The translations under genes were made by a program, and so were the position numbers. The notes beneath the pieces are model-generated. The model was not told where the DNA came from. It did no database searches and saw only the letters and a program-made list of their open reading frames with translations. 47,333 bases of DNA from Acidimicrobiales bacterium (GTDB taxonomy: Bacteria; Actinomycetota; Acidimicrobiia; Acidimicrobiales; VFJN01). Where the stretch lies: positions 1 through 47,333 of the forward strand of contig JBPPMN010000102.1 of NCBI GenBank assembly GCA_051306055.1. The letters run 5' to 3'. Shown here one piece after another: positions 27,652 through 45,714 of this stretch; positions within the stretch are counted from its first letter, which is position 1, and each line of letters opens with the position of its first letter.

Positions 27652-29139
27652 TCAGCCCTCCATGGCGGCGACGCGCTGCGCCGCCAGCATGCCCGACACC
27701 AGCACCATGGGCACGCCGACGCCGGGCAGGGTGCTGGATCCGGTGAACACGAGACCGGGCGCCCGCTTCTCCAGGTTCCCGGGACGGAAGGGTCCGGTCT
27801 GGCGGAACTTGTGCGACAGGGCGAAGGGCGTGCCCCGCTCCATGCCCTGGCGCTCCCAGTCGAGCGGGTCGACCAGCTCCTCCACGTCGATGGCGGTGGG
27901 GTACCCGAGGCGCTCGAGGTGGCCCAGCATCTGCTCGCGGGCCCGGGGACGCTCGCGGGTCCAGTCGACGGTGCCGTCGAGGTTGGGGGTGGGCTCGAGC
28001 ACGTAGATGGCGTGGCCGCCCTCGGGCGCCATCGTGGGCTCGTGGAGCGACGGCACGCTCACCAGCAGCGACGGGTCGGGCATCCGCACGCCGTCCTTGA
28101 GGATGGCCCGGAAGGCGCCGTCCCAGTCGGTGCCGAAGTGGATGTTGTGGTGCTCGGTGCCCGGCGGGAGGTCGCCCCGCACGCCGACGTGCCACACCAG
28201 CGCGGAGGGCGAGTAGTCGCCCCGTCGGGCCATCAGCGGCATGGGGGTGCCGGGCAGAAGGGTGCGGTAGGCCACGGGCAGGTCGGGGTTGGCCACCACG
28301 GCGTCGGCCTCGACCACCTCCCCATCCTCGAGGCGCACGCCGGTGACGGCCCCGGAGGTGCCCTGGCGCAGCAGGATGCGATCGACGCGGGTGTCGTAGC
28401 GGAAGGTGGCGCCGGCCCGCTCGGCGGCCGTGGCCAGGGCCACCGGCAGGGCGTGCATCCCACCCACGGGGATGAACACGCCGTTGACGCTGTCCATGTA
28501 GGTGATCACGGCGTAGATGGCCAGCGCCTCGTAGGGGGCCAGGCCGGCGTACATCGACTGGAAGCTGAAGATGCGCTGCAGGCGCTCGTCGGAGAAGTAG
28601 CTGCTCACCACCTTGGCCAGCTTGCGGAACCCGCCCATGCGCACGAGGTCGAGCGCCGGCTTGAGCGGCGAGGCGAGGTCGAGCGGCGAGTCGAAGCTGC
28701 GCTCGATGAAGTTGGGCATCTCGAGCTCGTAGAGCTTGCCCAGCCACTCGCAGAAGCGGCCGAAGGCCTCGGCTTCGGTGGGGCCGCAGACGCGACGGAT
28801 CTCCTCGGTCATGGCCTCGCGCCCGTGGCGCACGCGCAGCTCGGAGCCGTCGGCGTAGCAGGCGCGGTACATCGGGTCGACGGGCCGCAGGGTGAGCAGC
28901 TCCGAGCCGTCGACGCCCGCGGCCTCGAAGCAGCGGTCGATCAGGTTGGGCATGGTGAGCACGGTGGGCCCGGTGTCGAAGCGGTAGCCGCCGCGCTCCA
29001 GGCTGCCGGCGCGCCCGCCGGGGATCGAGGCCGCCTCCAGCACCGTGACGTCGTGGCCGGCCCCGGCCAGGTGGCAGGCGGCCGAGAGGCCGCCCAGGCC
29101 GGCACCGACGATGACCACCCGCTTCGCCACGGTCACCAC
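27652..29139 (-). CDS. crtI: Phytoene desaturase
   Basis: GAGLGGL FAD motif, GYRFDTGPTVLTMP, FQSMYAGL, PGVGVPMVLVSG. Confidence 0.94.
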   Translation of the reverse strand: MVTVAKRVVIVGAGLGGLSAACHLAGAGHDVTVLEAASIPGGRAGSLERGGYRFDTGPTVLTMPNLIDRCFEAAGVDGSELLTLRPVDPMYRACYADGSELRVRHGREAMTEEIRRVCGPTEAEAFGRFCEWLGKLYELEMPNFIERSFDSPLDLASPLKPALDLVRMGGFRKLAKVVSSYFSDERLQRIFSFQSMYAGLAPYEALAIYAVITYMDSVNGVFIPVGGMHALPVALATAAERAGATFRYDTRVDRILLRQGTSGAVTGVRLEDGEVVEADAVVANPDLPVAYRTLLPGTPMPLMARRGDYSPSALVWHVGVRGDLPPGTEHHNIHFGTDWDGAFRAILKDGVRMPDPSLLVSVPSLHEPTMAPEGGHAIYVLEPTPNLDGTVDWTRERPRAREQMLGHLERLGYPTAIDVEELVDPLDWERQGMERGTPFALSHKFRQTGPFRPGNLEKRAPGLVFTGSSTLPGVGVPMVLVSGMLAAQRVAAMEG

Positions 29140-30830
29140 CGCCGTTCGATGGCCAGGCCGGCCAGCTCGCGCAGAGCGGAGGCGGCCGGCTCGGGGAGCC
29201 CGACGAGCGCCTCGAGGGCGAGGGCGTGCTGGGCGGCGAGCAGCGCCTCCACCGAGGCCAGGGCGCCGGAGTCGGCCACCGCAGCGCGCGCCTCAGCGGC
29301 TCGCTCCTCGTCGAGGTCGGGGTCGCCCAGGCAGGCTTCGAGCACCCGGCGCTGGCCGTCGTCGGCCAGGCGGAGGGCTCGCAGCACCAGCACCGTGCGC
29401 TTGCCCTCGCGGAGGTCGTCGAGGGCGCTCTTGCCGGTGACGGCCGGATCACCGAAGAGGCCGAGGATGTCGTCGCGCATCTGGAAGGCGATGCCCACCG
29501 CGTCGCCGTAGGCGGCCAGGAGAGGGGACACCAGGTGGCCCTCGGGCGCCAGCGCGGCGCCCAGCTCCAGCGGGCGGGTGACGGTGTAGCGGGCCGACTT
29601 CAGCAGGGCGACGTGGCGGGCGCCGTCCTCGTGGGCGGCCGGGTCGGCGGCCAGCACGAGGTCGAGGTGCTGGCCGGCGATCACCTCGCGGCGCAGGGTG
29701 GTGAACACCGCCCGGGCGCGGGCGACGGCGTCGGCCGGGAGGTCGGTGGCGTCGAAGAGCTCGTCGGCCCATACGTAGGTGAGGTCGCCAGCCAGGATGG
29801 CGGCACTGCAGCCGAACCAGTCGCTGTCGCCCAGCCGATCGCCGGCGAGGTGGCGCTGGGCGAAGCCGGCGTAGGCGCTGGGACGACCGCGCCGCGTGGC
29901 CGAGCGGTCCATCACGTCGTCGTGGAGCAGAGCAAAGGTGTGCAGCAGCTCCACCGCCGCGGCAGGCCGCAGCACGGCCTCGTCGTGGTCGGCGCCGGCG
30001 GCCCGGTGGCCCCAGTAGACGAAGGCAGGGCGGAGGCGCTTGCCCCCGGCGTCGACCAGCGCCCGTATCTCGTCGGTGACCTCCGCCAAGGCGGGATCGA
30101 CGGCGACCGTCTCCGCCGCCTTGGCGTCGAGGAAGGTTCCGAGCAGCTCGCGCAGCGGGCCGCGGACGACGGCCAGCGGATCGCCCGCCGGCGCAACGGG
30201 AGCCGGGGCGCCGGCCAGGGCGATGGGCTGGTCGAGCAGCGTCTGCGAGCGGGCGGCGGCCGGGCCGTCGAGCCACTCGGCCGGGGAGGGGGCCAGGTCG
30301 TGCAGCTGGCGGATCTGCTCCACCGACCACGGGCTCAGGGTGGCGGGCTCGTGGGTGGCCCGGGCCACCAGGTCGTCCCAGCCCAGCCACACGAGGTCGT
30401 CGACCTCGTCGGGGTCGGCGGCGACCGGGCCCGTCACCTCGGCGACGGCCACGGGGCACAGCTCGTGCTCCACCGTGCCATCGGCCATCTGGGCACGGTA
30501 GGCGAAGTCGGGCAGCGCCAGCCCGACGCGACCCACCGCCAGGCCCAGCTCCTCGCCCACGCGCCGGGTGATGGCCTGGCGCATCGTCTCGCCGGTCTGG
30601 GGGTGTCCGCAGCAGCCGTTGGTCCAGGTTCCCGGCCAGGTGCGCTTGGAGAGCGCCCGACGGGTGAGGAGCACAGCGCCGTCGGCTCGCACGAGGTGGC
30701 AGGAGAAGGCCAGGTGCAGGGCGGTGGCGTCGTGGTGGGCGACCGCCTTGGGCTCGGTGGCGACGGGACGGCCACGCCGGTCGAGCAGCACCACGTGCTC
30801 CGTCGCCTGGGAGATCTCGCGCACCGACAT
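29133..30830 (-). CDS. Fused type-1 IPP isomerase (Idi) and polyprenyl/GGPP synthase (CrtE)
   Basis: N-terminal HLAFS, WTNGCCGHP, EHELCPV; C-terminal GGKRLRP, LLHDDVMD, FQMRDD, DDLREGK; one continuous frame; TAGCCT -10 7 nt before the ATG. Confidence 0.85.
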   Translation of the reverse strand: MSVREISQATEHVVLLDRRGRPVATEPKAVAHHDATALHLAFSCHLVRADGAVLLTRRALSKRTWPGTWTNGCCGHPQTGETMRQAITRRVGEELGLAVGRVGLALPDFAYRAQMADGTVEHELCPVAVAEVTGPVAADPDEVDDLVWLGWDDLVARATHEPATLSPWSVEQIRQLHDLAPSPAEWLDGPAAARSQTLLDQPIALAGAPAPVAPAGDPLAVVRGPLRELLGTFLDAKAAETVAVDPALAEVTDEIRALVDAGGKRLRPAFVYWGHRAAGADHDEAVLRPAAAVELLHTFALLHDDVMDRSATRRGRPSAYAGFAQRHLAGDRLGDSDWFGCSAAILAGDLTYVWADELFDATDLPADAVARARAVFTTLRREVIAGQHLDLVLAADPAAHEDGARHVALLKSARYTVTRPLELGAALAPEGHLVSPLLAAYGDAVGIAFQMRDDILGLFGDPAVTGKSALDDLREGKRTVLVLRALRLADDGQRRVLEACLGDPDLDEERAAEARAAVADSGALASVEALLAAQHALALEALVGLPEPAASALRELAGLAIERRW

Positions 30831-30850
30831 GGCGTGGAGGCTACCCGCTG

Positions 30851-30878
30851 TCGAGATAACCTCCACATCGTGTCTACA
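30851..30878. promoter_or_regulatory. CarH/CarA-type operator: three TnnACA-like repeats at 11-bp spacing
   Basis: TCGAGA 30851, TCCACA 30862, TCTACA 30873, overlapping the divergent promoters. Confidence 0.6.
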
Positions 30879-31715
30879 TCTGTTCCTGCGGCCGCCGGTC
30901 TGACCATCTCCGCGGTGGCCGCGCGCACGGGGGTGAGCGTCTCCGTGCTGCGGGCGTGGGAGGCCCGCCATGGCTTCCCGGAGCCGGAGCGGCTCCTCTC
31001 CGGCCACCGCCGGTACCCGGAAGCCGAGGTCGACCGGATCCTGCAGGTCGTGGCGGAGCGCAGGGCCGGCCGCACGTTGGAGGCGGCCATCACCGCCGTC
31101 CGCCACTCCGTCACCGATGCCCCCGCCGGGCTCCCCCAGCCTGGTGACCGCCACCGCTCGATCTTCGCCGGGCTCCGTCGGGCCCGTCCCGACCTCCATG
31201 CGCTGCCCCTCGGCCGCCGGACCATGCTGGCGCTGAGCCAGGCCATCGAGGACGAGGCCCGTGCGCACGCCGACCGACCTCACCTGATCGCCGCCTTCCA
31301 GACGCGCACCGCGTACGAGGCGGCCCACGACCGGTGGGCCGACCTCTCTGCCACCGCGGCCGCCACGATCGTCCTGGCCGACTTCCCGCGCAGCCGCCGC
31401 CGCGGCGCGGTGCTCGAGGTGGGCATCCCCGTCGGCGACCCCTTGCGCCGCGAGTGGTCGGTCGTGTGCGACGCCCCCGGCTCGGCCGCCCTCCTCGCTG
31501 GCTGGGAGCGGTCCGACGGGCGGTTCGAGGCGATCTGGACGGTGGACGCGCACGCCGTGCGGCTGGCCAGCGACCTCGGGCGCGGCCTCGCCGCGCACCA
31601 CGCCCCCCGCCTCGACCTGGGACCGGCGCCGGCCGCCGTCCACGACGACCCGGCCGCCGCGGTGGTCCGCAGCGCGGCGGTGACGCGGCGGGTGGTGGCC
31701 TACCTCGACCGGTGA
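30870..31715 (+). CDS. MerR-family (CarH/LitR-like HTH) regulator with C-terminal DICT sensory domain
   Basis: [37 protein letters not shown]; DICT-like [33 protein letters not shown] -10 7 nt before the GTG. Confidence 0.85.
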   Translation: [281 protein letters not shown]

Positions 31716-31719
31716 GCGA

Positions 31720-32766
31720 CTACCCCACGCTGGCGCTGTAGACGGGCAGGTCGAGCATGGTCAGCACGCCGGGCTCCGCCCGCACCACGTGGGGGATGGC
31801 GTTGACCACGTGCATGGCGGTGGCCAGGCAGCCGGCGTGGTTGTGGTCGCCGACGTCGCTGGAGAGGCCGAGCTCGATCTGCACGTGGGGCTCGCCCTCC
31901 ACGTTGATCCGGTAGCCGCTGCCCTGGGGCCAGTCGGGGGCGTCGCCGTCGCGCAGGCGGGTGACGTGCTCCACCACGATGCGCTCCTCGCCGTCGACCA
32001 GGCCGATGATCTCGAAGCGCATCCCCGAGATGGTGCCCTTCTCCACCGTGCCTGAGGCGATGGTGATGTCCTCGTCGGCGCGGATGATCTCGTGGGTCTC
32101 CTGCACGTCGTCGAGCTGCAGGCCGATGGCCGACGCCACCAGGTGCAGCACCGGGCCCCAGGCCAGCGCGGTGGACCCCGGCGACAGCAGCAGCGACTGC
32201 GACGGGTCCTGCTTCCCGAACCCCATGATCTGGAACATCGTGAAGGGGTTGTCCCAGGTGGCGTAGTTCACGATCTCCAGCATCCGCACCCGGCGCACCT
32301 CCTTGCAGAGGGCCAGGGCGTGGATGGTGATGCCGGCGTTGCCGAAGCCCGGGTCGATGCCCGAGGTGTAGAAGCTGCTGCCGCCCTCGAGGCAGGCCGC
32401 CTGGAGCCGGTCGTACACGCCATCGCCGGCCGCCTTCGGGAACAGCAGCGGCACGTAGGAGGTGTTCACCACGTTCGTCCCGCCAGCCAGCATGCCCACG
32501 ATGTCGTCGAGCACGCCGTCGGGGCGCAGGTCGGAGTTGGCCGTGTAGCAGACGCAGTCGGCATCGGAGGCCAGGAGCGCGGCGGCGTCCTGGGTGGCGG
32601 CCACGCCGGCCGGCGGGCCGCCGCACAGCTCACCGGCGTCCTTCCCCGCCTTGCTGTCGGAGTGCACCCACAGGCCGGCCAGCTCCAGCTCGGGATGGGC
32701 CACGATGGCGGGCACGGCGTGGATGCCCACGGTGCCGGTCGCCCACTGGATCACTCGGTAGGTCAC
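31720..32766 (-). CDS. Dihydrodipicolinate-reductase-like / NAD(P)H-dependent amine dehydrogenase family protein (Rv0926c-like)
   Basis: VIQWATGTVG, SGIDPGF, MGFGK, EHVTRL, GDHNHAG-ATAMHVVNAIP. Confidence 0.85.
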   Translation of the reverse strand: MTYRVIQWATGTVGIHAVPAIVAHPELELAGLWVHSDSKAGKDAGELCGGPPAGVAATQDAAALLASDADCVCYTANSDLRPDGVLDDIVGMLAGGTNVVNTSYVPLLFPKAAGDGVYDRLQAACLEGGSSFYTSGIDPGFGNAGITIHALALCKEVRRVRMLEIVNYATWDNPFTMFQIMGFGKQDPSQSLLLSPGSTALAWGPVLHLVASAIGLQLDDVQETHEIIRADEDITIASGTVEKGTISGMRFEIIGLVDGEERIVVEHVTRLRDGDAPDWPQGSGYRINVEGEPHVQIELGLSSDVGDHNHAGCLATAMHVVNAIPHVVRAEPGVLTMLDLPVYSASVG

Positions 32767-37336: not shown

Positions 37337-37935
37337 GCGAGCCCGTGATCCGCTCCTACCGGGCCGACGACCTCGAGGCGCTGTACGACATCTGCCTGCG
37401 CACCGGCGCGGCGGGCGAGGACGCCACCGAGCTGATGGCCGATCCCCGCCTGCTGGGCGACCTGTACGCGGCGCCCTACGCCGTGCTCGAGCCGGAGCAC
37501 GCCTTCGTGCTCGACGAGGGGACGGGAGTCGCAGTGGGCTACGTGCTGGGCGCCCTCGACACGGTGGCGTTCGACGCCCGCTGCGAGACGGAGTGGTGGC
37601 CGGCGCTGCGCGAGCGGCATCCAGCCGGGGAGTCGACGGGGCGCCTCGACGACCTCTTCCTGGCCCGGTTGCACGAGCCCCGACCGGCCCCGGCCGACGT
37701 GCTGGCCCGCTTCCCGTCGCACCTCCACATCGACCTGCTGCCGCCGGTGCAGTCGGGCGGCTGGGGGCGGGCGCTGCTGGAGCGGCTGTTCTCGGCCCTG
37801 CGCGACGACGGGTCGCCCGGGGTGCACCTGGGCGTCACCTCGCTCAACCAGCGGGCCGTCGGCTTCTACCGGCACCTCGGGTTCGAGGAGCTGGAGCGGG
37901 AGGGGAACGGCTACCTCATGGGGATGGTGCTCTAG
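37333..37935 (+). CDS. GNAT family N-acetyltransferase
   Basis: GTGA overlap; HLHIDLLP-QSGGWGR (motif A), NQRAVGFYRHLGF. Confidence 0.88.
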   Translation: MSEPVIRSYRADDLEALYDICLRTGAAGEDATELMADPRLLGDLYAAPYAVLEPEHAFVLDEGTGVAVGYVLGALDTVAFDARCETEWWPALRERHPAGESTGRLDDLFLARLHEPRPAPADVLARFPSHLHIDLLPPVQSGGWGRALLERLFSALRDDGSPGVHLGVTSLNQRAVGFYRHLGFEELEREGNGYLMGMVL

Positions 37936-38477
37936 CGGGACGTCGCCTCGAGGAGCGGGCGGTACGAGGCGAACGGCGCCACCTGGAGGTCGAGCACCTT
38001 GGCCGCGTCGTCCCACCCCCGCAGCGCCACCGCGTCCTCCCAGCCCGGGTTGGCCTCGAAGGCGGTCACCTCGCCGGGGTCCATCGGGCCTCCCTGCCGC
38101 TCGAGGCTGGCCACCGACCCGGCGGAGAGCACCTGCAGGTAGCTCGGGTCGACGGCGCAGCGGTAGCGCTTGGCCCGCACGTGCAGCGCGATCGACGCCG
38201 TGACCGCCGGCGGGAAGAGCGAGGCCAGCCACGCCGAGCCCCGAGCCTCGTGGCGCAGGTCGGCGGAGCGGTCGCGGGCGCCGTCGGCGGCCAGCTCGAG
38301 CAGGTGGCCGACGTCGTGCAGGAGCGAGGCCACCACGAGCGCGTCGGAGGCGCCGGCCGCCACCGCGAGGGCGGCCGTCTGCTCGGCGTGGGCCAGCTGG
38401 CTGAGGGCCTCGTCGTAGCGGTCGGCGCCGTGGCGCTCGAACAGGGCCTCGACCTCGGCGATCGACTGGGCCGTCAA
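37932..38477 (-). CDS. phnZ: HD-domain diiron oxygenase, PhnZ-like
   Basis: Y-EALSQLAHAEQTA, LLHDVGH, RHE, LHVRAKRY, SLERQGGPM, WDDAAK; TTG start overlaps the upstream stop (TTGA). Confidence 0.75.
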   Translation of the reverse strand: MTAQSIAEVEALFERHGADRYDEALSQLAHAEQTAALAVAAGASDALVVASLLHDVGHLLELAADGARDRSADLRHEARGSAWLASLFPPAVTASIALHVRAKRYRCAVDPSYLQVLSAGSVASLERQGGPMDPGEVTAFEANPGWEDAVALRGWDDAAKVLDLQVAPFASYRPLLEATSR

Positions 38478-39214
38478 CGGACCACCCTCCCCTGGAAGTC
38501 GCCGATGAGCGACACGGCACCACCGTCGCCGTCGACCAGCTCGGCTCGCTTCTGGTCGTAGTAGGCGGCTCGCAGGTCGCCCTCGGCCAGCGCGTTGTAG
38601 GTGGGGTACAGCGCTCGGCGGGGCGTGAGCCCGAGGTTGGGGCCGCTGCGGTGCGGCGTGCGGGAGTGGAACCACAACGTGTCCCCCGCTCGCACCTCCA
38701 CCGGCGTCCATGTGAGCGCGGAGGCGACGTCGGCCCGGATGCAGCCGACCTCGTCGGTGGGCAGCAGCTCGTGGTGGTGCCCCGACACCACCTCGAGGCA
38801 GCCGTTGTCGACCAGGGCATCGTCGACGGCGACCATGCACGACACGTGGGTGTCGACGAAGCGGTAGGCGGGGGCGTCCTGGTGGGGCGCGTAGCCGGCC
38901 CCGCCGGGGAGCTTGTAGTTGATCTTCTCCTTGTAGAGCACGGCCGGCTGGCCGAGCAGCGCCGAGGCCACCTCGAGCATCGGCCCGGTGGTGAGCAGCG
39001 CCCGCAGGCCGTCGTGGAAGGGGACGAAGTTCTCGCTGCGGCACAGCTGCGGGCCGTGCTCGGTGAGCTCGCGGTGGTGGAGCCACGGGCCGTCGGCATC
39101 CGGCCAGGCCGCCACCTCGGCCACCCACTTCCGCACGGTCGCAGGGTCGGTGGGGCTGCGGGTGAGCAGCCACCCCTCCCGGCGGAAGTGCTCGACGTCG
39201 CTCGATGCTGCCAT
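38474..39214 (-). CDS. phnY: PhyH-family Fe(II)/2OG dioxygenase, PhnY-like
   Basis: LYKEKINYKLPGG-GYAPHQD, NGCLEV, PHRSGPN-RRALYPTYN; coupled to the PhnZ-like gene. Confidence 0.7.
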   Translation of the reverse strand: MAASSDVEHFRREGWLLTRSPTDPATVRKWVAEVAAWPDADGPWLHHRELTEHGPQLCRSENFVPFHDGLRALLTTGPMLEVASALLGQPAVLYKEKINYKLPGGAGYAPHQDAPAYRFVDTHVSCMVAVDDALVDNGCLEVVSGHHHELLPTDEVGCIRADVASALTWTPVEVRAGDTLWFHSRTPHRSGPNLGLTPRRALYPTYNALAEGDLRAAYYDQKRAELVDGDGGAVSLIGDFQGRVVR

Positions 39215-39235
39215 CGGCTGCGACCCTATCCACGC

Positions 39236-39920
39236 TCAGGTCGGCGCTGCGGGAGGCGCCTGGTGACGGGGAGGTGAACGGACGGAGCTCGCTTGGATCC
39301 TCGTCGAGGTCGGGGTCGAGGGGCGTGGGTCGCGGCCCTGGGGCCGGCGCCGCTGGGTAGCTCGGGAGCTCCGGCGGTGGGTGGCGCCCGTCTGGCGGCG
39401 AGGCGACAGCATAGGTGCCCCGTTCGATGCGCTGGGCCCGTCCTTGCTCCACCTCGTAGGCCAGGGCGTCGCTCAAGGCCGTGACCGGACGACGGGAGTC
39501 GATCTGGTAGCCGTAGCGGTGCAGCAGGCCGTGGAGCTCGCGCAGCGTGGTGGCCCCGTGCCGGCGCAGGATCTCCAGGCACGCGCCGCGCAGCGCCCGC
39601 CCGCTGATGCGTTGGGCGCCGCTGGGGACGGCCGGGAGCGACGGTCCGTCGAGATGCGGTGGTCGCCGGCCCCGGGACCACTCGACCGGCGGGTAGAGGG
39701 CGTCTCGGAGCTCGGTCAGCGCATCGAGCACCGACCGGCGCTCGGCGCTCGACTCCAGCAGCCGGCGATCGATGCGCTCCAGGCTGCGCAAGAGCGCGTC
39801 TCGCTCCACCTGGAGCTCGATGCGGAGGGGCCGCGGGATCCCCGCCTCCCGGCGCATCCGGAACAGCGCCACGCGCCGGTGGCCGACGAAGGGCAGATCG
39901 TGGGGGTCGCTGACGGCCAT
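39236..39920 (-). CDS. Hypothetical coiled-coil plus winged-HTH protein; 3' end uncertain (no in-frame stop until 37932)
   Basis: Heptad-like segment then ILRRHGATTLRELHGLL...LSDALAYEVEQGRAQRIERGTY; Pro-rich tail; nearest TGA (39238-39236) is out of frame. Confidence 0.5.
39258..39279 (-). promoter_or_regulatory. PHO-box-like 11-nt direct repeats upstream of the phnY-like gene
   Basis: Minus strand GTTCACCTCCC/CGTCACCAGGC; TAGGGT -10 at 39228-39223. Confidence 0.4.
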
Positions 39921-40023
39921 GGCCGAGGAACCTCGTGGTCAGGTCGGGGTCTTCAGGCGGCGTGAGCCAGCGATGGGTCCATCCTCGCGCCGGGGTGTGA
40001 CAGGCCCTCCCTCTTGGCCCACC

Positions 40024-40059
40024 CGTAACGGTCGAATCGACGTCGAATCGACCGTTACG
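40024..40059. repeat. 36-bp near-perfect palindrome (REP-like)
   Basis: CGTAACGGTCGA-A-TCGACGTCGA-A-TCGACCGTTACG, self-complementary apart from one A/A pair. Confidence 0.8.
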
Positions 40060-40137
40060 CAGCGCCACACATGTGGGGCTGGGGGAAGGCCAGCCACGGT
40101 GGCGGCCAGCACGGACGACTCAGCGGGACAGCAGCGC

Positions 40138-40902
40138 TCAGGTGCGGAGCCGCTCCGGCGCGCCCCAGAGGGCATCGTTGAGCTCGGCCCACAGCGCTCG
40201 GTACGCCCGGGCGGCGGCGGTGGACGGCGCGAACTCGCCCACCGGAGCGCGCTCCACGCCCATGCGCTCCACCACCGCGGCGGCGGGCACGGTGGTGCGG
40301 CGCAGCGCCGGCCACTCCGCAGCCAGGGTCTCCACCATCTCGCGGTGCAGCTTGCGACGCCGGTCGACCATCGACAGCACCGGCCACACCTCGGGAGCGC
40401 GCTCCTGGTCGGCCAGGAAGTCGACCAGCTGGCTGAGGGTGCGGCTGGCCAGGGTGGCCGGCACGACCGGCACCAGCAGCGCATCGCAGGCCCCGAACAC
40501 GCTCTCGCTGGCCAGGGAGATGCTGGGCGGGCAGTCGAGCAGGGCCAGGTCGTAGTCGTCGGCCACCGGCTCCAGCAGCCGGGCCAGGCGGCGGGTGGGG
40601 CGCTTGGTGCCCTCGAGGTGCACGTCGAGGTGGCGCAGGGAGAAGTCGGCCGGCACGACGTGCACGGGCGACAGGTCGGACCCTCGGATGTGCGAGGCCA
40701 GCTCGCCCTTGGCGCCGATCAGCCGACGGCTGCCGCCGCGCACCTTCGGCCGCACCCGGAAGAGGTAGGTGGCGGCGCCCTGGGGGTCGAGGTCCCAGAC
40801 GAGCACCCGCACGCCGGAGCGGGCTGCCTCGTAGGCCAGGTTGACCGCGGTGCTGGTCTTCCCGACGCCGCCCTTGATGCTGTAGGTGGCGAGCACCTTC
40901 AT
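40138..40902 (-). CDS. ParA/MinD family ATPase (orphan, no ParB adjacent)
   Basis: Deviant Walker A KGGVGKT, WDLDPQG, LLDCPP; ATG overlaps the CHAD gene stop. Confidence 0.92.
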   Translation of the reverse strand: MKVLATYSIKGGVGKTSTAVNLAYEAARSGVRVLVWDLDPQGAATYLFRVRPKVRGGSRRLIGAKGELASHIRGSDLSPVHVVPADFSLRHLDVHLEGTKRPTRRLARLLEPVADDYDLALLDCPPSISLASESVFGACDALLVPVVPATLASRTLSQLVDFLADQERAPEVWPVLSMVDRRRKLHREMVETLAAEWPALRRTTVPAAAVVERMGVERAPVGEFAPSTAAARAYRALWAELNDALWGAPERLRT

Positions 40903-42428
40903 CCGGCGGCCGCCTGGGCCAGGAGGGCCTCGAGGGCGCGGCGGTTGGCCTTGGTGTCGTAGGTCTGGAACCGCTCCATGAAGTCGTCGCGCTCGGCCTG
41001 ACGGCGGCGCTCGAGGTGGTCGGTGATGCGGCCCATGGCCAGCAGCGTGTCGGTGTCGACCCGGCTGCGGTCGTGGAGGTCGCGGGCCAGCTCCCGGAGG
41101 TGCTCGAGGTGCACCTCGGCGTCCTGGTGGTCGCCAAGGTTGTCCTGCAGCGCCTTCAGCTGGCCGACGAACGCCTTGCGAGCCTTCGTGGGGTGCAGGC
41201 TGCCGAAGCACTCGAGCAGGTACCGCAGCTTCTTGGCGTCCTTGCGCAGGTCGTGGAGGTCCTCGGCCGGGGAGTCGGCGGTGATGGCCCGGCCGTGGGC
41301 CAGCAGCCGCTCCTGGGCCCGGGCGGTGCGCTGGGCCACCAGCGGTCCGAGGGGACGACCCGATGGCTCGCCGACGGCGCCCTCCAGCCACTGGCGCCAG
41401 GCGCTGAGCAAGTCGTGACAGGTGTCGCTGCGCAGGGCGTTGGCCAGGGCCCGGTGGGCGGCCAGGCGGCGGGCCTGCAGCTCGTCGCGCACCTTGTCGA
41501 GGGCCCCGGGGTCGTCGGCGCCGATGGGGGCGACCAGGTCGTCCCAGCCGAGCACGTACACGTCGAGGTCGCGCGCTCGTCCCGTGACGCTGCCCAGCCA
41601 GCCGAACGACTCCCGGAAGCGCTCGCGCACGTCGCTCGGGAGGACCCCGCGCGACTGGGCCAGCACCGAGCGCGTGCGGCGCACGGCCACCCGGAGCTCG
41701 TGCAGGAACTCAGGGTCGGTGGCGGCGACGGTGCCCTCGAGGTTGGCGTCGATGGTGTCGGCCAGGTTGGCCAGGACCCGCCGGAAGCCGTCGAGGGCGT
41801 CCTCGTCGCCATCGAGCGGCACGGTGGGCGACGACTCGTGGCCCGCGAGGTCGATGCCCACCGCCGAGGCCACGACGGCGCAGAGGTCGGAGCCAGAGGG
41901 CTCCAGCCCCATGGCGTGCAGGCGCTGGAGCGTCTGCTCCAGGTCGTCGCCGTGGCCGGCCACGCCCACGACCTCCGCCACCCACTCGGGGAGGACGGCA
42001 CCGTTGGTGGCCTCCGACTCGATCGACGAGTGGATGGTGAGCTGCGCCACCACCTTGCCCCGCCGGTCGCGGCGCTCCACGGACCGGGCCACGGAGCGCA
42101 CCGACACCACCGGCAGGAGGGCGCGCTCCTCCGTGTGGGGCAGCACCCGAGCCCGGAACGGACCGGGCGGCAGCGCGTCGGCGAACGCCGGTGGCCGGTC
42201 GATGGCCAGCACGGCCGGCACCGTGTGGTCGCCGCCGCTCAGCACGAGCTGCGAGGTGGCCCCCTGGCGCAGCTCGAGCTGGAGGCCGGCCCGGTGCAGC
42301 CGCCCGTCGAACGTGTCGAGGAGCACCCGGGTGCTGGGGGTGGGCTCCCCCACCTCGAAGCCTCCGTCGGCCAGGGCTCGGGCCAGCCGGTCGGCGGCGA
42401 GGTCGGGGTCGGAGAAGGTGGTGGGCAT
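40899..42428 (-). CDS. CYTH-like plus CHAD domain protein (polyphosphate-binding family)
   Basis: LLDTFDGRL (CYTH-like); CHAD motifs EFLHELRVAVRRTRS, ARDLDV, LHDLRKDAKKLRY, LQDNLGDHQD. Confidence 0.88.
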   Translation of the reverse strand: MPTTFSDPDLAADRLARALADGGFEVGEPTPSTRVLLDTFDGRLHRAGLQLELRQGATSQLVLSGGDHTVPAVLAIDRPPAFADALPPGPFRARVLPHTEERALLPVVSVRSVARSVERRDRRGKVVAQLTIHSSIESEATNGAVLPEWVAEVVGVAGHGDDLEQTLQRLHAMGLEPSGSDLCAVVASAVGIDLAGHESSPTVPLDGDEDALDGFRRVLANLADTIDANLEGTVAATDPEFLHELRVAVRRTRSVLAQSRGVLPSDVRERFRESFGWLGSVTGRARDLDVYVLGWDDLVAPIGADDPGALDKVRDELQARRLAAHRALANALRSDTCHDLLSAWRQWLEGAVGEPSGRPLGPLVAQRTARAQERLLAHGRAITADSPAEDLHDLRKDAKKLRYLLECFGSLHPTKARKAFVGQLKALQDNLGDHQDAEVHLEHLRELARDLHDRSRVDTDTLLAMGRITDHLERRRQAERDDFMERFQTYDTKANRRALEALLAQAAAG

Positions 42429-42471
42429 CGGTGGTGGACCGGACCGAGCTCGGGCGGTCCATGATGAGGCC

Positions 42472-42945
42472 ATGGGCACCGAGATCGAGCGGAAGTTCCT
42501 GGTGGCGGCCGTCCCCTCCCCCGAGGCGCTCGGGCCGGGGGTTCGGCTGCGGCAAGGGTACTTGGCCCTCGATGAACAGGTAGAGGTGAGGATGCGAACA
42601 GGCGATGACGCCACCCTGCTCACCATCAAGGCCGGCCGCGGCCTCACCCGCACTGAGGTGGAGCTGCCGCTAGACGGTGCCGCGGCGGACGATCTGTGGC
42701 CGCACGCCGCGGCCCGTTCGCTGGAGAAGGTGCGGCACCGCATCGACCTCGGCCACGGGCTCACGGCCGAGCTCGACCGCTACGAGGGCGCGCTGGCGGG
42801 GCTGGTCACCGTGGAGGTGGAGCTCCCGACGGAGGACGCCGCCGCCCGGTTCATCGCGCCGCCGTGGTTCGGGCGCGAGCTCACCGGCGAGGCGGGATGG
42901 TCCAACGCGGAGCTGGCCCGCCACGGTCCCCCGGCAAGCGGGTGA
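42472..42945 (+). CDS. CYTH domain protein (triphosphate tunnel metalloenzyme)
   Basis: EIERKFLV (ExExK), QGYL, LTIK, EKVR, VEVEL, PPWFGRELTG...SN. Confidence 0.9.
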   Translation: MGTEIERKFLVAAVPSPEALGPGVRLRQGYLALDEQVEVRMRTGDDATLLTIKAGRGLTRTEVELPLDGAAADDLWPHAAARSLEKVRHRIDLGHGLTAELDRYEGALAGLVTVEVELPTEDAAARFIAPPWFGRELTGEAGWSNAELARHGPPASG

Positions 42946-42967
42946 GCGCTCCGTAGGCTGGAGCCCG

Positions 42968-43369
42968 ATGATCGAAGCCGCCGGTGGCGTGGTGTGGCGC
43001 CGCACCTCGAAGGGTGTGGTGAAGGTGCTGCTCGTGCACCGCCCGCGCTACGACGACTGGTCGCTCCCCAAGGGCAAGCTCGAGCCGGGCGAGGCGGCCC
43101 GGGACGCCGCGCTGCGGGAGGTGGAGGAGGAGACCGGCCTCCGGTGCCGGGCCGATGCCGAGCTGCCCGAGACCCTCTACATCGACCGCAAGGACCGACC
43201 GAAGCGGGTGCGCTACTGGGTGATGGAGCCCACCGCCGGCGAGTTCGCCCCCAACGACGAGGTCGACGAGGTGCGCTGGGTGCCCGCCGAAGAGGCGGCC
43301 GGCGTGCTCACCTACCCACACGATGCGGCGGTGGTCGACGCCTTCCGGCAGCTCCAGCGAACGGGCTGA
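42968..43369 (+). CDS. Nudix hydrolase (MutT1/Ap4A-hydrolase-like)
   Basis: AAGGVVWR, HRPRYDDWSLPKGK, Nudix box GKLEPGE-AALREVEEETG, PNDEVDEVRW. Confidence 0.92.
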   Translation: MIEAAGGVVWRRTSKGVVKVLLVHRPRYDDWSLPKGKLEPGEAARDAALREVEEETGLRCRADAELPETLYIDRKDRPKRVRYWVMEPTAGEFAPNDEVDEVRWVPAEEAAGVLTYPHDAAVVDAFRQLQRTG

Positions 43370-43390: not shown

Positions 43391-44050
43391 ATGCCCGCCG
43401 CCCTCGTCGAGCCCCACGGCGCCACCGCCGTGCTGCGGCTCACCACCGATGCCAACGCCGTCGACACCTCGTTCCTCGACGACATCGGTGCCGCCCTCGA
43501 CCGCATCGAGTCCGACGACAGCCTCACCGCGGTGGTGACCGTCGGCGCCGGCAAGAGCTTCTCCACCGGCTTCGACCTCGACCACATCATGGGCCTCGGC
43601 GACGGCGCCACCGCCTTCCTCGACCGGGCGCAAGACCTGCTGGCCCGACTGGTCACCTTCTCCCGGCCCACGGTGGCGGCCCTCAACGGCCACGCCTTCG
43701 GCTACGGCGCCATGCTGGCGCTGGCCCACGACCAGCGGGCCATGCGCGCCGATCGCGGGTGGTTCTGCTTGCCGGAGGTCGACCTCGGCCTGCAGCTGCA
43801 CGCCTTCTGGACCGCCCTGCTCACCACCCGAGCGGGCGACGCCACCGCCCTCGAGGCCATCACCACCGCCCGTCGCTACGACGGCCCCGCCGCGGTCGAG
43901 GCGGGCATCGCGGCGAGCGCCCACGCGGAGGCCGATCTCCTCGACGCCGCCATCGCCCTGGCCGAGGCTCGGGCGGGCAAGGACCCGGCCATGGTCCGCA
44001 CCCTCAAGCAGGACCTCTACGCGCCGCTGCTCTCCCTTCTCGAGGGCTGA
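43391..44050 (+). CDS. Enoyl-CoA hydratase/isomerase family protein
   Basis: FSTGFDL, PTVAALNGHAFGYG, FCLPEVDLGL. Confidence 0.9.
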   Translation: MPAALVEPHGATAVLRLTTDANAVDTSFLDDIGAALDRIESDDSLTAVVTVGAGKSFSTGFDLDHIMGLGDGATAFLDRAQDLLARLVTFSRPTVAALNGHAFGYGAMLALAHDQRAMRADRGWFCLPEVDLGLQLHAFWTALLTTRAGDATALEAITTARRYDGPAAVEAGIAASAHAEADLLDAAIALAEARAGKDPAMVRTLKQDLYAPLLSLLEG

Positions 44051-45624
44051 GCTCGGCCCACGAGGGTCAGCACCAGCAGGGCTGCCCCCACGGCGGTCGA
44101 CACCACGAACACCGGTGGCACCGCCCGCCCGGTGGCCGGCAGGGCGGCGACCGACGGAGCGGCCGAGGTGGGAGCCGCCGCCGTGGTCGGCGCCGCCGTG
44201 GTGGCGGGCGCAGGCGTGGCGGGGGCCGAGGTGAAGGGCCACACGCCGTTGGTGAGGCGCACCACGTAGAAGCCGCTGAAGCCGTCGGAGTACCAGATCT
44301 CGCCGCGCTCGGGCACGAAGGCGGGCGCCGACATGGCGTAGCTGCTGCCCTCGAGGAGCAGCCGATCCTGCACCGGCGCGTTGAAGTAGGCGATCTCCTT
44401 CGGGTTGTGCGGATCACGGATGTCGAACACCCGCAGCCCCGAGAGGATCATCGAGCAGGCCACGATCCCTGGGTCGTCGCGCTGGGGGACGCTGCAGTAG
44501 TGCCCGGCGTAGCCCTGGATGGGGCTCAGGGTGCCCGGGTCGCCGGTGAGGTCGGCGAAGTGCTCGGGCTGGTGCACCTCGAGGCGGAGGTTGGAGATGA
44601 TGTGCGGGTCGGTCTCGTCCGCGATGTCGATGATGCGCCCCGCCCCCACCTTCGACAGCGAGCCGAACTCGTCGATCTCCACCAGGTAGGGGTGGCCGTC
44701 GACGGTGATCGGGAGGGCGTTCTGGGGGATGCTCATCGTGTCCCACGACAGCGTCGACACCACCGGCACCTCGGGGTTGGGCACGCGGGCCTGCACCTCG
44801 GAGGTGTCGAGGATGATCAGCCCGTTCAGCCCGGCCACGTAGATGCGGTTGCCGTCGTCGCTCACCGACAGGCCGTGGGAGGGGTGGTCGCCCTGCCAGA
44901 GCAGCTCCGGGGCCGACAGGTCGTCCAGGCCGACCGCGAAGATCGTGCTTGTGGCCGGCGACGCGGAGTAGAAGGTGCGGCCGTCGGGCGCCATGCCGCT
45001 CTCGTGGCCGAGGATGCCGAAGGGCGACACCGACGCCAGCTGCGGGTCGAGGCAGTCCTGCGAGACGTCGTACACGTCGACCACGCCGGGACCGAAGGCC
45101 GGGTTGCCGAGCACCGCCGCCAGCACGCCCCGCTCCTGGCTGAGCACCAGCGACTCGTGGGGCGAGAGCATGGCCGGCGTGAGCAGCGTGCGCACGAGGC
45201 GGGGCTGGGAGGGGTCGGCCATGTCCATCACGTTCACACCGGCCCGACCGTCGAGCAGGTCGGTGGGGAACAGCAGCGTGGTGTCGTAGAACGCGCACTC
45301 CTGGCCCTGGGCGTCGACGTAGCGCTCCACCTTGTAGCCGCCGTAGGTGCCGTTGCCGTCGGGCTCGACGAACGACCCCACCAGCTCCGTGTTGCAGGTG
45401 AAGCCCTCGGCCGCCCGACCGGAGGCGTGATCGTCCGCCGACACACGGCCCTGCAGGCCCGTCTCCGGACGGGAGCCGGGACCGCACTCGGCCTGCGGCG
45501 TCGCCACCACCGGGGCCTCCGGGGCGTAGGCCACCGCGGCCGACGTCACCCCCAGCAGGGCGGAGGAGACGGTGAGGGCGACCAGCACGAGCAGCCAGCG
45601 GCGGTCGGGGGTTCGGCGGGCCAT
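44017..45624 (-). CDS. Secreted LVIVD-repeat-like beta-propeller protein with an LPxTG-type sorting signal
   Basis: Signal peptide (MARR..hydrophobic..AYA); repeats GVNVMD, VVDVYD, GLIILD, GRIID, GLRVFD; A/P/T linker, LPATG, hydrophobic helix, basic tail. Confidence 0.75.
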   Translation of the reverse strand: MARRTPDRRWLLVLVALTVSSALLGVTSAAVAYAPEAPVVATPQAECGPGSRPETGLQGRVSADDHASGRAAEGFTCNTELVGSFVEPDGNGTYGGYKVERYVDAQGQECAFYDTTLLFPTDLLDGRAGVNVMDMADPSQPRLVRTLLTPAMLSPHESLVLSQERGVLAAVLGNPAFGPGVVDVYDVSQDCLDPQLASVSPFGILGHESGMAPDGRTFYSASPATSTIFAVGLDDLSAPELLWQGDHPSHGLSVSDDGNRIYVAGLNGLIILDTSEVQARVPNPEVPVVSTLSWDTMSIPQNALPITVDGHPYLVEIDEFGSLSKVGAGRIIDIADETDPHIISNLRLEVHQPEHFADLTGDPGTLSPIQGYAGHYCSVPQRDDPGIVACSMILSGLRVFDIRDPHNPKEIAYFNAPVQDRLLLEGSSYAMSAPAFVPERGEIWYSDGFSGFYVVRLTNGVWPFTSAPATPAPATTAAPTTAAAPTSAAPSVAALPATGRAVPPVFVVSTAVGAALLVLTLVGRAQPSRRESSGA

Positions 45625-45714
45625 CCAGGACAGGTTCAACGCCGGCTTGCCCCACTCCTGTCCGACGGCGTTAGGTTCGGCCATCAGCAGGCTCGACCAG
45701 GGGGAACCGGCACG

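What the first reader, a model, noticed from the sequence alone, without database searches (positions are those of the whole stretch)
40138..42428. Orphan ParA coupled to a CHAD protein: candidate polyphosphate-granule positioning system
Seen: the CYTH-CHAD stop overlaps the parA start (ATGA at 40902-40899); ParA has intact KGGVGKT, DLDPQG and DCPP motifs; no parB, parS, minE, chemotaxis or carboxysome genes are in the window; the divergent neighbours are CYTH and Nudix genes. Known: CHAD domains bind polyphosphate and localise to polyP granules (PptA/PptB), and ParA/MinD ATPases position cargo through an adjacent adaptor (ParAB, McdAB, ParC/ParP, PpfA). Inference: the CHAD protein is the cargo adaptor and ParA spaces or segregates polyP granules over the nucleoid. 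I know of no description of such a system.
Basis: partly seen in the sequence, partly recalled or inferred. Interest (0 to 1): 0.82.

Follow-up and report, generated by a model that had tools for sequence, protein, structure and literature searches.

The report
ParA ATPase paired with polyphosphate-binding protein
A small ParA-type positioning ATPase is encoded in a tight, widely conserved two-gene unit with a protein that binds polyphosphate, which makes it a good candidate for the unknown machinery that places polyphosphate storage granules in bacterial cells.

Summary
A 509-aa CHAD protein (40899-42428, minus strand) overlaps by ATGA a 254-aa ParA (40138-40902). A CYTH gene and a Nudix gene run divergently. 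The genome's only ParB lies on another contig.

The linkage is conserved. Starting from ParA, 66 of 78 assessable species-genome loci carry the same CHAD protein immediately upstream, across Actinomycetota, Gamma- and Alphaproteobacteria and Trichloromonas. Starting from the CHAD protein, 71 of 76 assessable metagenome loci carry ParA immediately downstream.

The partner has a CtCHAD-like domain in which all six tested polyP-contact residues are invariant. Its N-terminal domain has the triphosphate-tunnel fold but lacks the ExExK motif.

In two congeners the syntenic locus keeps only the CHAD domain; the N-domain and ParA are both missing. Other family members sit directly after a two-domain PPK2.

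A co-fold gave weak support: score 0.56, best control 0.00.

Not every relative is polyP-linked. Sixteen of 20 further proteobacterial loci had no polyP gene nearby, and one actinobacterial subclade is coupled to an aminotransferase.

Two Acidithiobacillus papers note the ppk-parA-CHAD cluster; no paper found proposes granule positioning. Functional coupling is well supported. Positioning itself is inferred.

The parts
40899..42428 (-). Gene for a 509-aa two-domain protein, a tunnel-fold (CYTH-like) N-domain followed by a long CHAD domain. It is the proposed polyP-granule adaptor.
   Evidence: Translation. Pfam CHAD 4e-58. Model pLDDT 95.9. Fold matches. The codon-position GC pattern fits this frame.
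41829..42428 (-). N-domain, residues 1-200. It has the triphosphate-tunnel fold but no ExExK motif, and is proposed to be the ParA-facing module.
   Evidence: Foldseek matches to thiamine triphosphatase, SaTTM and YgiF. No Pfam CYTH hit at E<0.01. ExExK in 0 of 56 partners and in 0 of the 150 best relatives. It is absent from the syntenic CHAD-only genes of G002 and G015, which also lack ParA.
40902..41816 (-). CHAD domain, residues about 205-509, of the long CtCHAD type.
   Evidence: Profile match at E 3e-83 to PDB 3e0s and 6qv7. TM-score 0.89-0.93 to 6qva and 3e0s. H243, R246, R250, R286, R402 and Y403 are invariant in 56 of 56 partners. They align with CtCHAD H253, R256, R260, R296, R418 and Y419.
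40138..40902 (-). parA, encoding a 254-aa ParA/MinD-family ATPase with a deviant Walker A motif.
   Evidence: Translation. Pfam AAA_31 1e-32. K10 to T16, D37, D39 and D123 are invariant in 90 of 90 family members. The nearest solved relatives are the ParA family protein 8ray (3e-30) and Soj 1wcv.
40899..40902 (-). ATGA, where the stop of the CHAD gene overlaps the start of parA (translational coupling).
   Evidence: Read. ATGA or GTGA is kept in 10 of 12 orthologous loci.
40025..40058 (-). Strong stem-loop about 80 nt after the parA stop, a likely operon end with no T-run.
   Evidence: Fold of 40010-40140: -61.9 kcal/mol, z -2.84, 2 of 200 shuffles as good. The consensus terminator scan found nothing.
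42429..42471 (.). A 43-nt gap between the two divergent start codons, which must hold the shared control region.
   Evidence: Start codons read. No sigma-70-like site was found.
42472..42945 (+). Divergent stand-alone CYTH gene that does carry the EIERK (ExExK) motif.
   Evidence: Pfam CYTH 1e-7. The translation begins MGTEIERKFLV. It is conserved divergently upstream of the pair in 13 loci whose titled members are all Acidimicrobiia-type MAGs (three are untitled metagenome contigs), and lies nearby in 4 more loci.
42950..43369 (+). Nudix hydrolase gene following the CYTH gene. The start coordinate is approximate.
   Evidence: Pfam NUDIX 4e-22. The frame change near 42900 shows. The gene is retained in the syntenic loci of G002 and G015.

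Best explanation
The two genes form one operon that encodes a cargo-positioning pair for polyphosphate granules. The 509-aa protein attaches to polyP through its CHAD domain and so marks the granule. Its catalytically degenerate tunnel-fold N-domain presents the granule to ParA. ParA-ATP dimers sit on a polyanionic matrix, most likely the nucleoid. The granule-bound partner stimulates ATP hydrolysis and release, so granules move up the ParA gradient, space themselves out and are shared between daughter cells, as in McdAB or ParABS. Shown here: the gene coupling, its conservation, the polyP-binding signature, the fold of both domains and the intact ATPase motifs. Inferred: the physical contact (weak co-fold support only), the role of the N-domain, the matrix and the effect on granules.
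For: 1. Linkage starting from ParA. Eleven of 11 orthologous loci in relatives carry the CHAD protein immediately upstream, and 66 of 78 assessable loci from species genomes do so. These span Acidimicrobiia, Thermoleophilia, Actinomycetes, Methylococcales, Chromatiaceae, Sedimenticola, Rhodospirillales and Trichloromonas.
2. Linkage starting from the CHAD protein. In 71 of 76 assessable metagenome loci, ParA follows immediately on the same strand.
3. Nothing else in the neighbourhood is conserved. The next ORF cluster occurs in at most 9 of the 80 genome loci, so the pair is the unit.
4. Where the pair is split, both genes stay in the genome. In 5 of 5 exception genomes a full-length partner (E 1e-169 to 1e-193) lies elsewhere.
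5. Natural co-variation. In G002 and G015, both of the same genus, the syntenic locus reads Nudix, CHAD-only, PhyH. It lacks the N-domain, the divergent CYTH gene and ParA. No adjacent partner lacking the N-domain was seen among the 66 loci: 63 show it, 2 are cut by contig ends and 1 is fragmented.
6. PolyP binding. The CHAD part matches CtCHAD at E 3e-83 and TM 0.89-0.93. All six central residues whose mutation lowers polyP binding in CtCHAD are invariant in 56 of 56 partners.
7. Independent polyP links of the ParA family. A two-domain PPK2 lies directly upstream of ParA in 4 of 20 further proteobacterial loci. L207 has the order CHAD protein, ParA, PPK2 on one strand. ppk1, ppk2 or ppx lies within the flanks of 11 of 160 loci. 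As a rough expectation of my own, with no formal control, about 1 would be expected from 4 such genes in 3.7 Mb of the window's genome. Acidithiobacillus has folD-ppk-parA-CYTH/CHAD in print.
8. The window's genome has ppk1, ppk2 and two ppx/gppA genes, and this is its only CHAD protein.
9. Co-fold of ParA (1-246, two copies) with the partner (1-508). The tool's verdict was weak support. The median score was 0.56 (runs 0.52, 0.56, 0.57) and the best of 3 controls was 0.00. The mark was reached by 58 of 80 solved complexes and 2 of 110 mismatched pairs. Scores of 0.60 or under came from only 7 of those 80 and from both mismatches that passed. The runs agree in at least 90% of contacts and the partner's pLDDT is at least 82. 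My own alignments and a three-chain job differ from the calibration.
10. This ParA is not the chromosome-segregation ParA. The single ParB sits beside a different ParA on C102.
Against: 1. No experiment and no localisation data exist for any member.
2. The ParA family is wider than its polyP-linked part. In a 401-genome Pseudomonadota sample, 69 genomes matched the ParA profile at E<=1e-60 but only 8 matched the partner at E<=1e-60, 6 of them as adjacent pairs. Only 3 to 6 candidates per genome were scored in these searches.
3. Sixteen of 20 further loci fetched from that sample had no CHAD, PPK or PPX gene within about 4 kb.
4. One actinobacterial subclade couples ParA by a 4-nt overlap to a class-V aminotransferase-like gene. 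This holds for 4 of the 5 loci fetched, from 6 genomes of one family.
5. Two genomes of the 401-genome Actinomycetota sample (G293, G362), four metagenome loci (L176, L187, L194, L206) and the Thiodictyon plasmid pTs417 carry the full partner with no ParA found at E<=1e-60 or none beside it.
6. DNA binding is not established. Two arginines conserved in 17 of 17 Soj-like ParAs are not basic in this clade.
7. The partner has no basic N-terminal peptide of the ParB or MinE kind (my reading).
8. The co-fold is weak by the tool's own standard, and no interface was reported.
9. Kin are not independent, and the metagenome set was selected through the CHAD protein.
Confidence: 0.5

Rival explanations
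1. The pair does act on polyP granules, but not by a nucleoid ratchet. ParA binds polyP itself, or the granule surface, through its clade-specific basic loop. It then controls granule number, size, fusion or the recruitment of enzymes such as PPK2, with the CHAD protein as co-factor.
For: The clade has its own invariant or near-invariant basic positions (R49, K/R51, K/R53, K/R55, R90, R154, R218) that the Soj-like ParAs lack. It has lost two arginines conserved in Soj. PPK2 is the direct neighbour in several lineages. PolyP is a polyanion like DNA (general knowledge).
Against: R182 aligns with the Soj arginine of the MxDxR stretch and is invariant in 155 of 155 clade members. R189 changes in B. 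subtilis Soj reduce DNA binding according to a passage in PMC10711552. The equivalence of R182 to R189 rests on my recall of the Soj sequence. All known ParA cargo systems use DNA or membrane as matrix (recalled).
Confidence: 0.2
2. The CYTH-CHAD protein is an enzyme or signalling protein, such as a triphosphatase or a class IV adenylate cyclase regulated by polyP. ParA is then a regulatory or unrelated neighbour. This is the reading given for Acidithiobacillus.
For: PMC6416229 reads the Acidithiobacillus protein as an adenylate cyclase whose CYTH active-site residues are conserved (section read). The N-domain keeps an invariant D41, R102 and K125. An active CYTH gene and a Nudix gene lie divergently upstream here.
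Against: The ExExK motif is absent from 56 of 56 partners and from the 150 best N-domain relatives. Pfam CYTH does not match. A translationally coupled ParA conserved across phyla is not explained by an enzyme role. CHAD domains lack enzymatic activity according to PMC6537752 (passage).
Confidence: 0.12
3. It is a DNA partition cassette of a plasmid, an integrated element or a second replicon, with the CHAD protein standing in for the centromere-binding protein.
For: The ParA is small and scores best, though under the cut-off, against the NCBIfam ParA_partition model (92.5 bits against 180). Its distribution is patchy: 9 of 25 genomes of the genus and 17 of 401 of the phylum sample.
Against: The window holds ordinary metabolic genes. 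Only 43 of 72,556 plasmid records match the partner, and the single hit above 35% identity has no ParA beside it. CHAD binds polyP but not nucleic acids according to PMC6537752 (passage). The flanks vary between loci.
Confidence: 0.03
4. The adjacency has no functional meaning. The two genes simply travel together.
For: Some relatives of each gene occur without the other.
Against: The order, strand and stop/start overlap are kept at 50-55% ParA identity and 28-38% partner identity across phyla. Both genes are retained when unlinked. The N-domain and ParA are lost together.
Confidence: 0.03

Closest known systems
McdA/McdB carboxysome positioning (ParA-family ATPase plus cargo adaptor)
   Same: It is a two-gene unit of a small ParA-type ATPase and a cargo-bound partner. 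The cargo is a membraneless cytoplasmic body. No ParB or centromere is involved. McdA structures 6non and 6noo are matched at about 5e-12.
   Different: The partner here is a folded 509-aa tunnel-fold plus CHAD protein that precedes parA. No sequence relation of the partner to McdB was tested. The cargo would be an inorganic polymer granule. A 2026 study found polyP organisation in S. elongatus to be independent of McdAB (passage).
Chromosomal ParABS (Soj/Spo0J)
   Same: The fold and the deviant Walker A motif are shared. The nearest solved structures are 8ray and Thermus Soj 1wcv. R182 aligns with a Soj arginine.
   Different: Identity to the genome's own Soj-like ParA is 33%, and that ParA keeps the only ParB. 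A long branch with 100% local support separates the two groups in the FastTree tree. All NCBIfam partition models score under their cut-offs.
CtCHAD (Chlorobium tepidum Q8KE09, residues 208-522; PDB 3e0s, 6qv7, 6qva)
   Same: It is the closest solved relative of the CHAD part (E 3e-83, TM 0.89-0.93). The same polyP-contact residues are present. The crystallised piece begins at residue 208 of a longer protein, as the CHAD domain does here.
   Different: Only the isolated domain was studied. I could not test whether its parent protein has the same N-domain or a ParA neighbour.
E. coli YgiF (CYTH-CHAD triphosphatase, PDB 5a60)
   Same: The two-domain order, tunnel fold then CHAD, is the same. Foldseek aligned 475 columns.
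   Different: Sequence identity is 13%. YgiF has the short CHAD type without the central pore (passage). Here ExExK is missing. That E. coli ygiF has no ParA partner is recalled, not tested.
Acidithiobacillus folD-ppk-parA-CYTH/CHAD cluster ('ACAci operon')
   Same: It is the same gene trio in print: ppk1, parA and a CYTH-CHAD protein, conserved across the genus.
   Different: The authors read it as cAMP signalling or as context for copper resistance, and they call ParA a chromosome or plasmid partition protein. They report conserved CYTH active-site residues, unlike here. I could not fetch those sequences to place them in my tree.
AlgP-dependent even spacing of polyP granules in Pseudomonas aeruginosa
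   Same: It addresses the same cell-biological problem, namely the regular spacing of granules on the nucleoid (abstract listing; passages are on AlgP and CHAD proteins).
   Different: AlgP is a histone H1-like protein, not an ATPase system. No ParA is implicated there.

Membership tests
ParA/MinD ATPases (deviant Walker A) | KGGxxK[ST] Walker A with the signature lysine | tested here: met
   K10, G11, G12, V13, G14, K15 and T16 are invariant in 90 of 90 members. Pfam AAA_31 scores 113.8 bits against a cut-off of 27.
ParA/MinD ATPases (deviant Walker A) | Acidic residues of Walker A' and Walker B | tested here: met
   D37, D39 and D123 are invariant. Their assignment to A' and B is from recalled family knowledge.
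ParA/MinD ATPases (deviant Walker A) | A partner protein that stimulates the ATPase | not testable with these tools
   Adjacency and coupling are shown. The co-fold gave weak support: 0.56, best control 0.00.
ParA/MinD ATPases (deviant Walker A) | ATP-dependent binding to a matrix (nucleoid DNA or membrane) | tested here: inconclusive
   R182 is kept in 155 of 155 clade members. Two arginines conserved in 17 of 17 Soj-like ParAs are not basic here. The clade has new conserved basic positions.
Chromosomal or plasmid ParABS | An adjacent ParB or other centromere-binding protein | tested here: not met
   The single ParB_N match in the genome is on C102, beside another ParA. The downstream ORF at 39216-39920 has no Pfam match and is missing from relatives.
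Chromosomal or plasmid ParABS | Score above the NCBIfam partition model cut-offs | tested here: not met
   ParA_partition scores 92.5 bits against 180, and RepA 74.4 against 348.
CHAD polyP-binding proteins (phosins) | Pfam CHAD domain and the two four-helix-bundle fold | tested here: met
   197.7 bits against a cut-off of 25.6. TM 0.89-0.93 to CtCHAD. Foldseek also matches PptA (6rn5) and RcCHAD (6qv5).
CHAD polyP-binding proteins (phosins) | Basic residues of the central cavity that contact polyP | tested here: met
   H243, R246, R250, R286, R402 and Y403 are invariant in 56 of 56 partners. They correspond to CtCHAD H253, R256, R260, R296, R418 and Y419. The back-side patch is only partly kept (my reading).
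CHAD polyP-binding proteins (phosins) | Localisation to polyP granules in vivo | not testable with these tools
   No data exist for any member of this subfamily.
CYTH / triphosphate tunnel metalloenzymes | Eight-stranded tunnel fold | tested here: met
   Foldseek matches to ThTPase, SaTTM, CyaB-type cyclases and YgiF.
CYTH / triphosphate tunnel metalloenzymes | N-terminal ExExK catalytic motif | tested here: not met
   Found in 0 of 56 partners and in 0 of the 150 best N-domain relatives. The divergent stand-alone CYTH gene does have EIERK.
CYTH / triphosphate tunnel metalloenzymes | Pfam CYTH match | tested here: not met
   No match at E<0.01.
ParA-type cargo-positioning pairs (McdAB-like, works-like comparison) | A ParA gene in one operon with a protein that binds the cargo | tested here: met
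   Searches show the operon. Searches show cargo binding by homology.

The most novel reading that the evidence does not exclude
This is an old, cross-phylum ParA family dedicated to polyphosphate, and its matrix is not DNA. ParA-ATP would bind polyP itself through the clade-specific basic loop (R49, K51, K53, K55). The tunnel-fold plus CHAD partner, and in other lineages PPK2, would switch it off. That would make it the first ParA system to organise an inorganic polymer on an inorganic polymer, setting granule number and size as well as position.
Probability: 0.15. Interest if true: 0.92.

Novelty: new variant of a known kind. Interest (0 to 1): 0.8.

Why it matters
How bacteria place and share out polyphosphate granules is an open question. 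A 2026 study states that the mechanism is undefined in E. coli and Caulobacter, and that in Synechococcus it does not depend on the ParA-type McdAB system (passages). A 2024 review of ParA/MinD cargo systems contains neither 'polyphosphate' nor 'CHAD' (term search).

A conserved ParA whose operon partner is a polyP-binding protein gives that question a concrete genetic handle, and the carriers include cultured strains. By record title these include Methylotuvimicrobium buryatense 5G (L049), Methylomonas lenta (L058), Sedimenticola selenatireducens (L098) and Candidatus Solirubrobacter pratensis (L071).

It would also give CHAD proteins a function, since their role beyond binding polyP is stated to be unknown (abstract of PMC10892726). 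It would add an inorganic cargo to the ParA repertoire. Finally, it would explain why the best-studied CHAD crystal structure is the C-terminal part of a longer protein.

Tried and rejected
Pfam CYTH on the N-domain found nothing at E<0.01, so the fold was established from a model instead.

Clustering of ORFs in the 80 genome loci found no third widely conserved gene. The divergent CYTH gene is confined to one lineage and turned up only in a directed search.

The consensus promoter and terminator scans found nothing in 39900-42700.

Run search: no RNA holder was listed, so nothing can be said on expression.

I considered natural ParA fusions. ORFs spanning both genes in L054, L066 and L089 are stop-to-stop artefacts of frame-shifted long-read assemblies. 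L103's 1135-aa frame shows only ParA domains in Pfam.

The trees are FastTree only, and many inner branches have low support. I draw no conclusion from them on the order of gains and losses.

The mapping of R182 onto B. subtilis Soj R189 rests on recall plus the Thermus alignment.

Figure S3 of PMC10892726 (EFI-GNT neighbourhood) and Figure S1 of PMC6537752 (alignment) may bear on the linkage and the residue mapping, and I did not see them.

What I saw of each paper:
- PMC10892726: section 15 and passages.
- PMC6416229: section 11.
- PMC6537752, PMC9239181, PMC11894788, PMC13081873, PMC11407121 and PMC10711552: passages only.
- PMC5359497: not held.

Searches behind the statement that no paper proposes ParA-driven granule positioning.

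Unpublished genomes. G004 and G132, G436, G272, G164, G063, G215 and G442 enter only the denominators and tallies of the 41- and 401-genome counts. None of them is one of the ParA-CHAD pairs described.
Full report
**What is in the window**

On the minus strand an ORF runs from ATG 42428 to TGA 40901-40899 (509 aa). A second ORF runs from ATG 40902 to TGA 40140-40138 (254 aa). The two share the bases ATGA at 40902-40899. GC at the third codon position is 0.9-1.0 in exactly these frames.

The downstream protein is a ParA/MinD ATPase. It matches Pfam AAA_31 at 1e-32 and carries KGGVGKT, DLDPQG and DCPP. It reaches no NCBIfam cut-off. The upstream protein matches Pfam CHAD at 4e-58 over residues 218-445, and nothing matches its first 200 residues.

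A stand-alone CYTH gene starts 43 nt away and runs divergently (42472-42945, beginning MGTEIERK). A Nudix gene follows it, ending at 43369. A strong stem-loop at 40025-40058 follows parA.

The rest of the window holds ordinary metabolic genes and no plasmid or phage genes among the 22 ORFs I scanned. The genome (G000, 97% complete) has one ParB, next to a Soj-like ParA on contig C102 that is 33% identical to this one. It also has ppk1, ppk2 and two ppx/gppA genes. This is its only CHAD protein.

**Is the linkage conserved?**

In 41 related genomes an orthologue of this ParA (over 50% identity) occurs in 12: nine of 25 in the genus, G000 included, and three of 16 other families of the order. 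In all 11 other loci the CHAD protein lies immediately upstream on the same strand. The stop/start overlap is kept in 10 of the 12 loci.

A scan of one genome per species found at least 596 loci that encode a relative. Of the best 80 (50-74% identity), 66 have the full-length CHAD protein directly upstream, 12 do not, and 2 have too little upstream DNA to tell. Carriers by record title include Acidimicrobiia, Thermoleophilia, several Actinomycetes families, Methylococcales, Chromatiaceae, Sedimenticola, a Rhodospirillales MAG and Trichloromonas. No other neighbour is widely conserved.

The reverse test started from the CHAD protein in a separate metagenome collection. ParA lay immediately downstream in 71 of 80 loci. 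Four of the other nine have under 150 nt of downstream DNA, which gives 71 of 76.

In five genomes where ParA stands alone, a full-length partner was found elsewhere in every one (E 1e-169 to 1e-193). In one of them that partner has its own second ParA.

**The partner protein**

With 56 partners as the alignment, the model has pLDDT 95.9 and pTM 0.92.

Residues about 205-509 superpose on the Chlorobium tepidum CHAD domain (TM 0.89-0.93), and the sequence profile matches it at 3e-83. That domain was crystallised with polyP. Mutation of H253, R256, R260, R296, R418 and Y419 lowered binding 6- to 150-fold (PMC6537752, passages). The aligned residues here are H243, R246, R250, R286, R402 and Y403, and all six are invariant in 56 of 56 partners. 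The crystallised piece is residues 208-522 of its parent protein, the same layout as here.

Residues 1-200 have the triphosphate-tunnel (CYTH) fold. They lack the ExExK motif in 56 of 56 partners and in all 150 best relatives out of 1.84 billion representatives. That search found 655 relatives at E<=0.001. Of the best 150, 82 are 480-560 aa long, and 73 of the 85 that are at least 480 aa long carry the CHAD motifs. The domain therefore hardly exists outside this architecture.

**N-domain and ParA vary together**

Thirteen of the 41 related genomes have a CHAD protein but no ParA orthologue. In four that I examined (G002, G011, G015, G029) the protein is a stand-alone CHAD of about 300 aa with no ParA nearby.

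In G002 and G015 the locus is syntenic with the window at the DNA level. Nudix, the CHAD domain and (in G002) PhyH align at 68-77% identity. The divergent CYTH gene, the N-domain and ParA are missing on both sides of the retained CHAD segment.

Among the 66 adjacent partners, none lacks the N-domain where this can be judged. This is my reason for proposing the N-domain as the ParA-facing module. It is an inference.

**Further polyP links**

ppk1, ppk2 or ppx lies within the flanks of 11 of 160 loci.

In a 401-genome Pseudomonadota sample, 69 genomes match the ParA profile at E<=1e-60. Six of them have the adjacent partner, one has it unlinked, and one further genome has the partner alone. I fetched 20 of the remaining ParA loci. 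Four have a two-domain PPK2 ending 4-32 nt before parA, and 16 have no polyP gene within about 4 kb.

The same PPK2 type lies beside the pair in L057, L136, L161, L167 and L207. In L207 it follows ParA on the same strand.

All ten 'unlinked' or PPK2-linked genomes that I checked hold a stand-alone CHAD protein elsewhere. CHAD is common, however: 6 of 14 control genomes have one.

Two papers print a conserved folD-ppk-parA-CYTH/CHAD cluster in Acidithiobacillus.

**Results that limit the claim**

In a 401-genome Actinomycetota sample the ParA clade is rare, occurring in 17 genomes and 9 of 254 genera. Eleven of these are adjacent pairs. Six, all of one family, are not. In four of the five loci fetched from that family, ParA overlaps by 4 nt a class-V aminotransferase-like gene instead.

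Two genomes have the partner with no ParA match at E<=1e-60 and none in the stretch fetched around the partner. The same holds locally for four metagenome loci and a Thiodictyon megaplasmid, where the partner sits near pstSB.

In these large searches only 3 to 6 candidates per genome were scored, so misses are possible.

In FastTree trees the whole family is separated from the Soj-like ParAs with 100% local support. The unlinked and PPK2-linked members nest among CHAD-linked ones, but many inner branches are weak.

**ParA itself**

The ATPase motifs are invariant in 90 of 90 members. R182, which aligns with the arginine of the Soj MxDxR stretch, is invariant. Two arginines conserved in all 17 Soj-like sequences are not basic in this clade. 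The clade has its own conserved basic positions: 49, 51, 53, 55, 90, 154 and 218. Whether the matrix is DNA or polyP stays open.

**Co-fold**

Two copies of ParA (1-246) were folded with the partner (1-508), and the tool's verdict was weak support. The score was 0.56 (runs 0.52, 0.56, 0.57) and the best of three controls was 0.00.

The mark was reached by 58 of 80 solved complexes and 2 of 110 mismatched pairs. Scores of 0.60 or under came from only 7 of those 80 and from both mismatches that passed. The runs agree in at least 90% of contacts, and the partner's pLDDT is at least 82. No interface was given. My own alignments and the three-chain job differ from the calibration.

**Literature**

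I found no paper that proposes a ParA system for polyP granules (searches). A 2026 study calls the positioning mechanism undefined. The 2024 ParA/MinD review contains neither 'polyphosphate' nor 'CHAD'.

**Verdict**

The polyP link rests on homology to a biochemically tested domain and on recurrent PPK neighbours.

Granule positioning is the most economical mechanism (about 0.5). A polyP-matrix or granule-regulation variant comes next (about 0.2).

In kind, this is a ParA cargo system with a new adaptor class and a new, inorganic cargo.

Noticed in passing
window 37932-39920 (-): One 662-aa open frame covers three stretches whose codon-position GC pattern changes. The middle stretch (38474-39214) is a PhyH gene in another frame. 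The 235-aa stretch at 39216-39920, directly after parA, has no Pfam match. It is missing in relatives, where PhyH follows parA at once (L003-L005).
   Followed up: partly
window 42429-42471: Only 43 nt separate the divergent start codons of the CYTH gene and the CHAD gene. This suggests leaderless transcripts or overlapping promoters. No sigma-70-like site was found.
   Followed up: partly
L216-L219 (G110, G138, G205, G066): In one actinobacterial family, a ParA of this clade (51-52% identical) overlaps by 4 nt an upstream class-V aminotransferase-like gene (Pfam 2e-22 to 2e-23 for the two scanned, L216 and L217) instead of a CHAD gene.
   Followed up: partly
L235:2499-3986, L236:2515-4035, L237:4749-6911, L238 (cut); L207:2124-3587: A two-domain PPK2 (Pfam down to 6e-144) lies directly upstream of ParA in four small proteobacterial genomes. 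In one metagenome contig it lies directly downstream of the CHAD-ParA pair.
   Followed up: partly
L059, L064, L074, L083 (Methylobacter): The unlinked ParA sits between an HDOD-receiver-GGDEF protein and a glycogen phosphorylase gene. A hybrid histidine kinase lies further upstream.
   Followed up: no
L045, L048, L054, L060, L066, L085, L089: The CHAD partner gene is split over two or more frames. By record name these are mostly long-read MAGs, so the splits may be assembly errors rather than pseudogenes.
   Followed up: no
L221 (Candidatus Thiodictyon syntrophicum plasmid pTs417, 400687-402273): A full-length partner (37% identical) lies on a 417-kb plasmid near pstB and pstS, with no ParA beside it.
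   Followed up: partly
window 29136-31760 (-): A single 875-aa open frame carries both a NUDIX domain and a polyprenyl synthetase domain. It may be a fusion, or two genes in one frame.
   Followed up: no
window 44020-45660 (-): A coding-like frame of about 547 aa has only a sub-threshold LVIVD repeat match. It and the enoyl-CoA hydratase gene are missing from the syntenic locus of G002.
   Followed up: no
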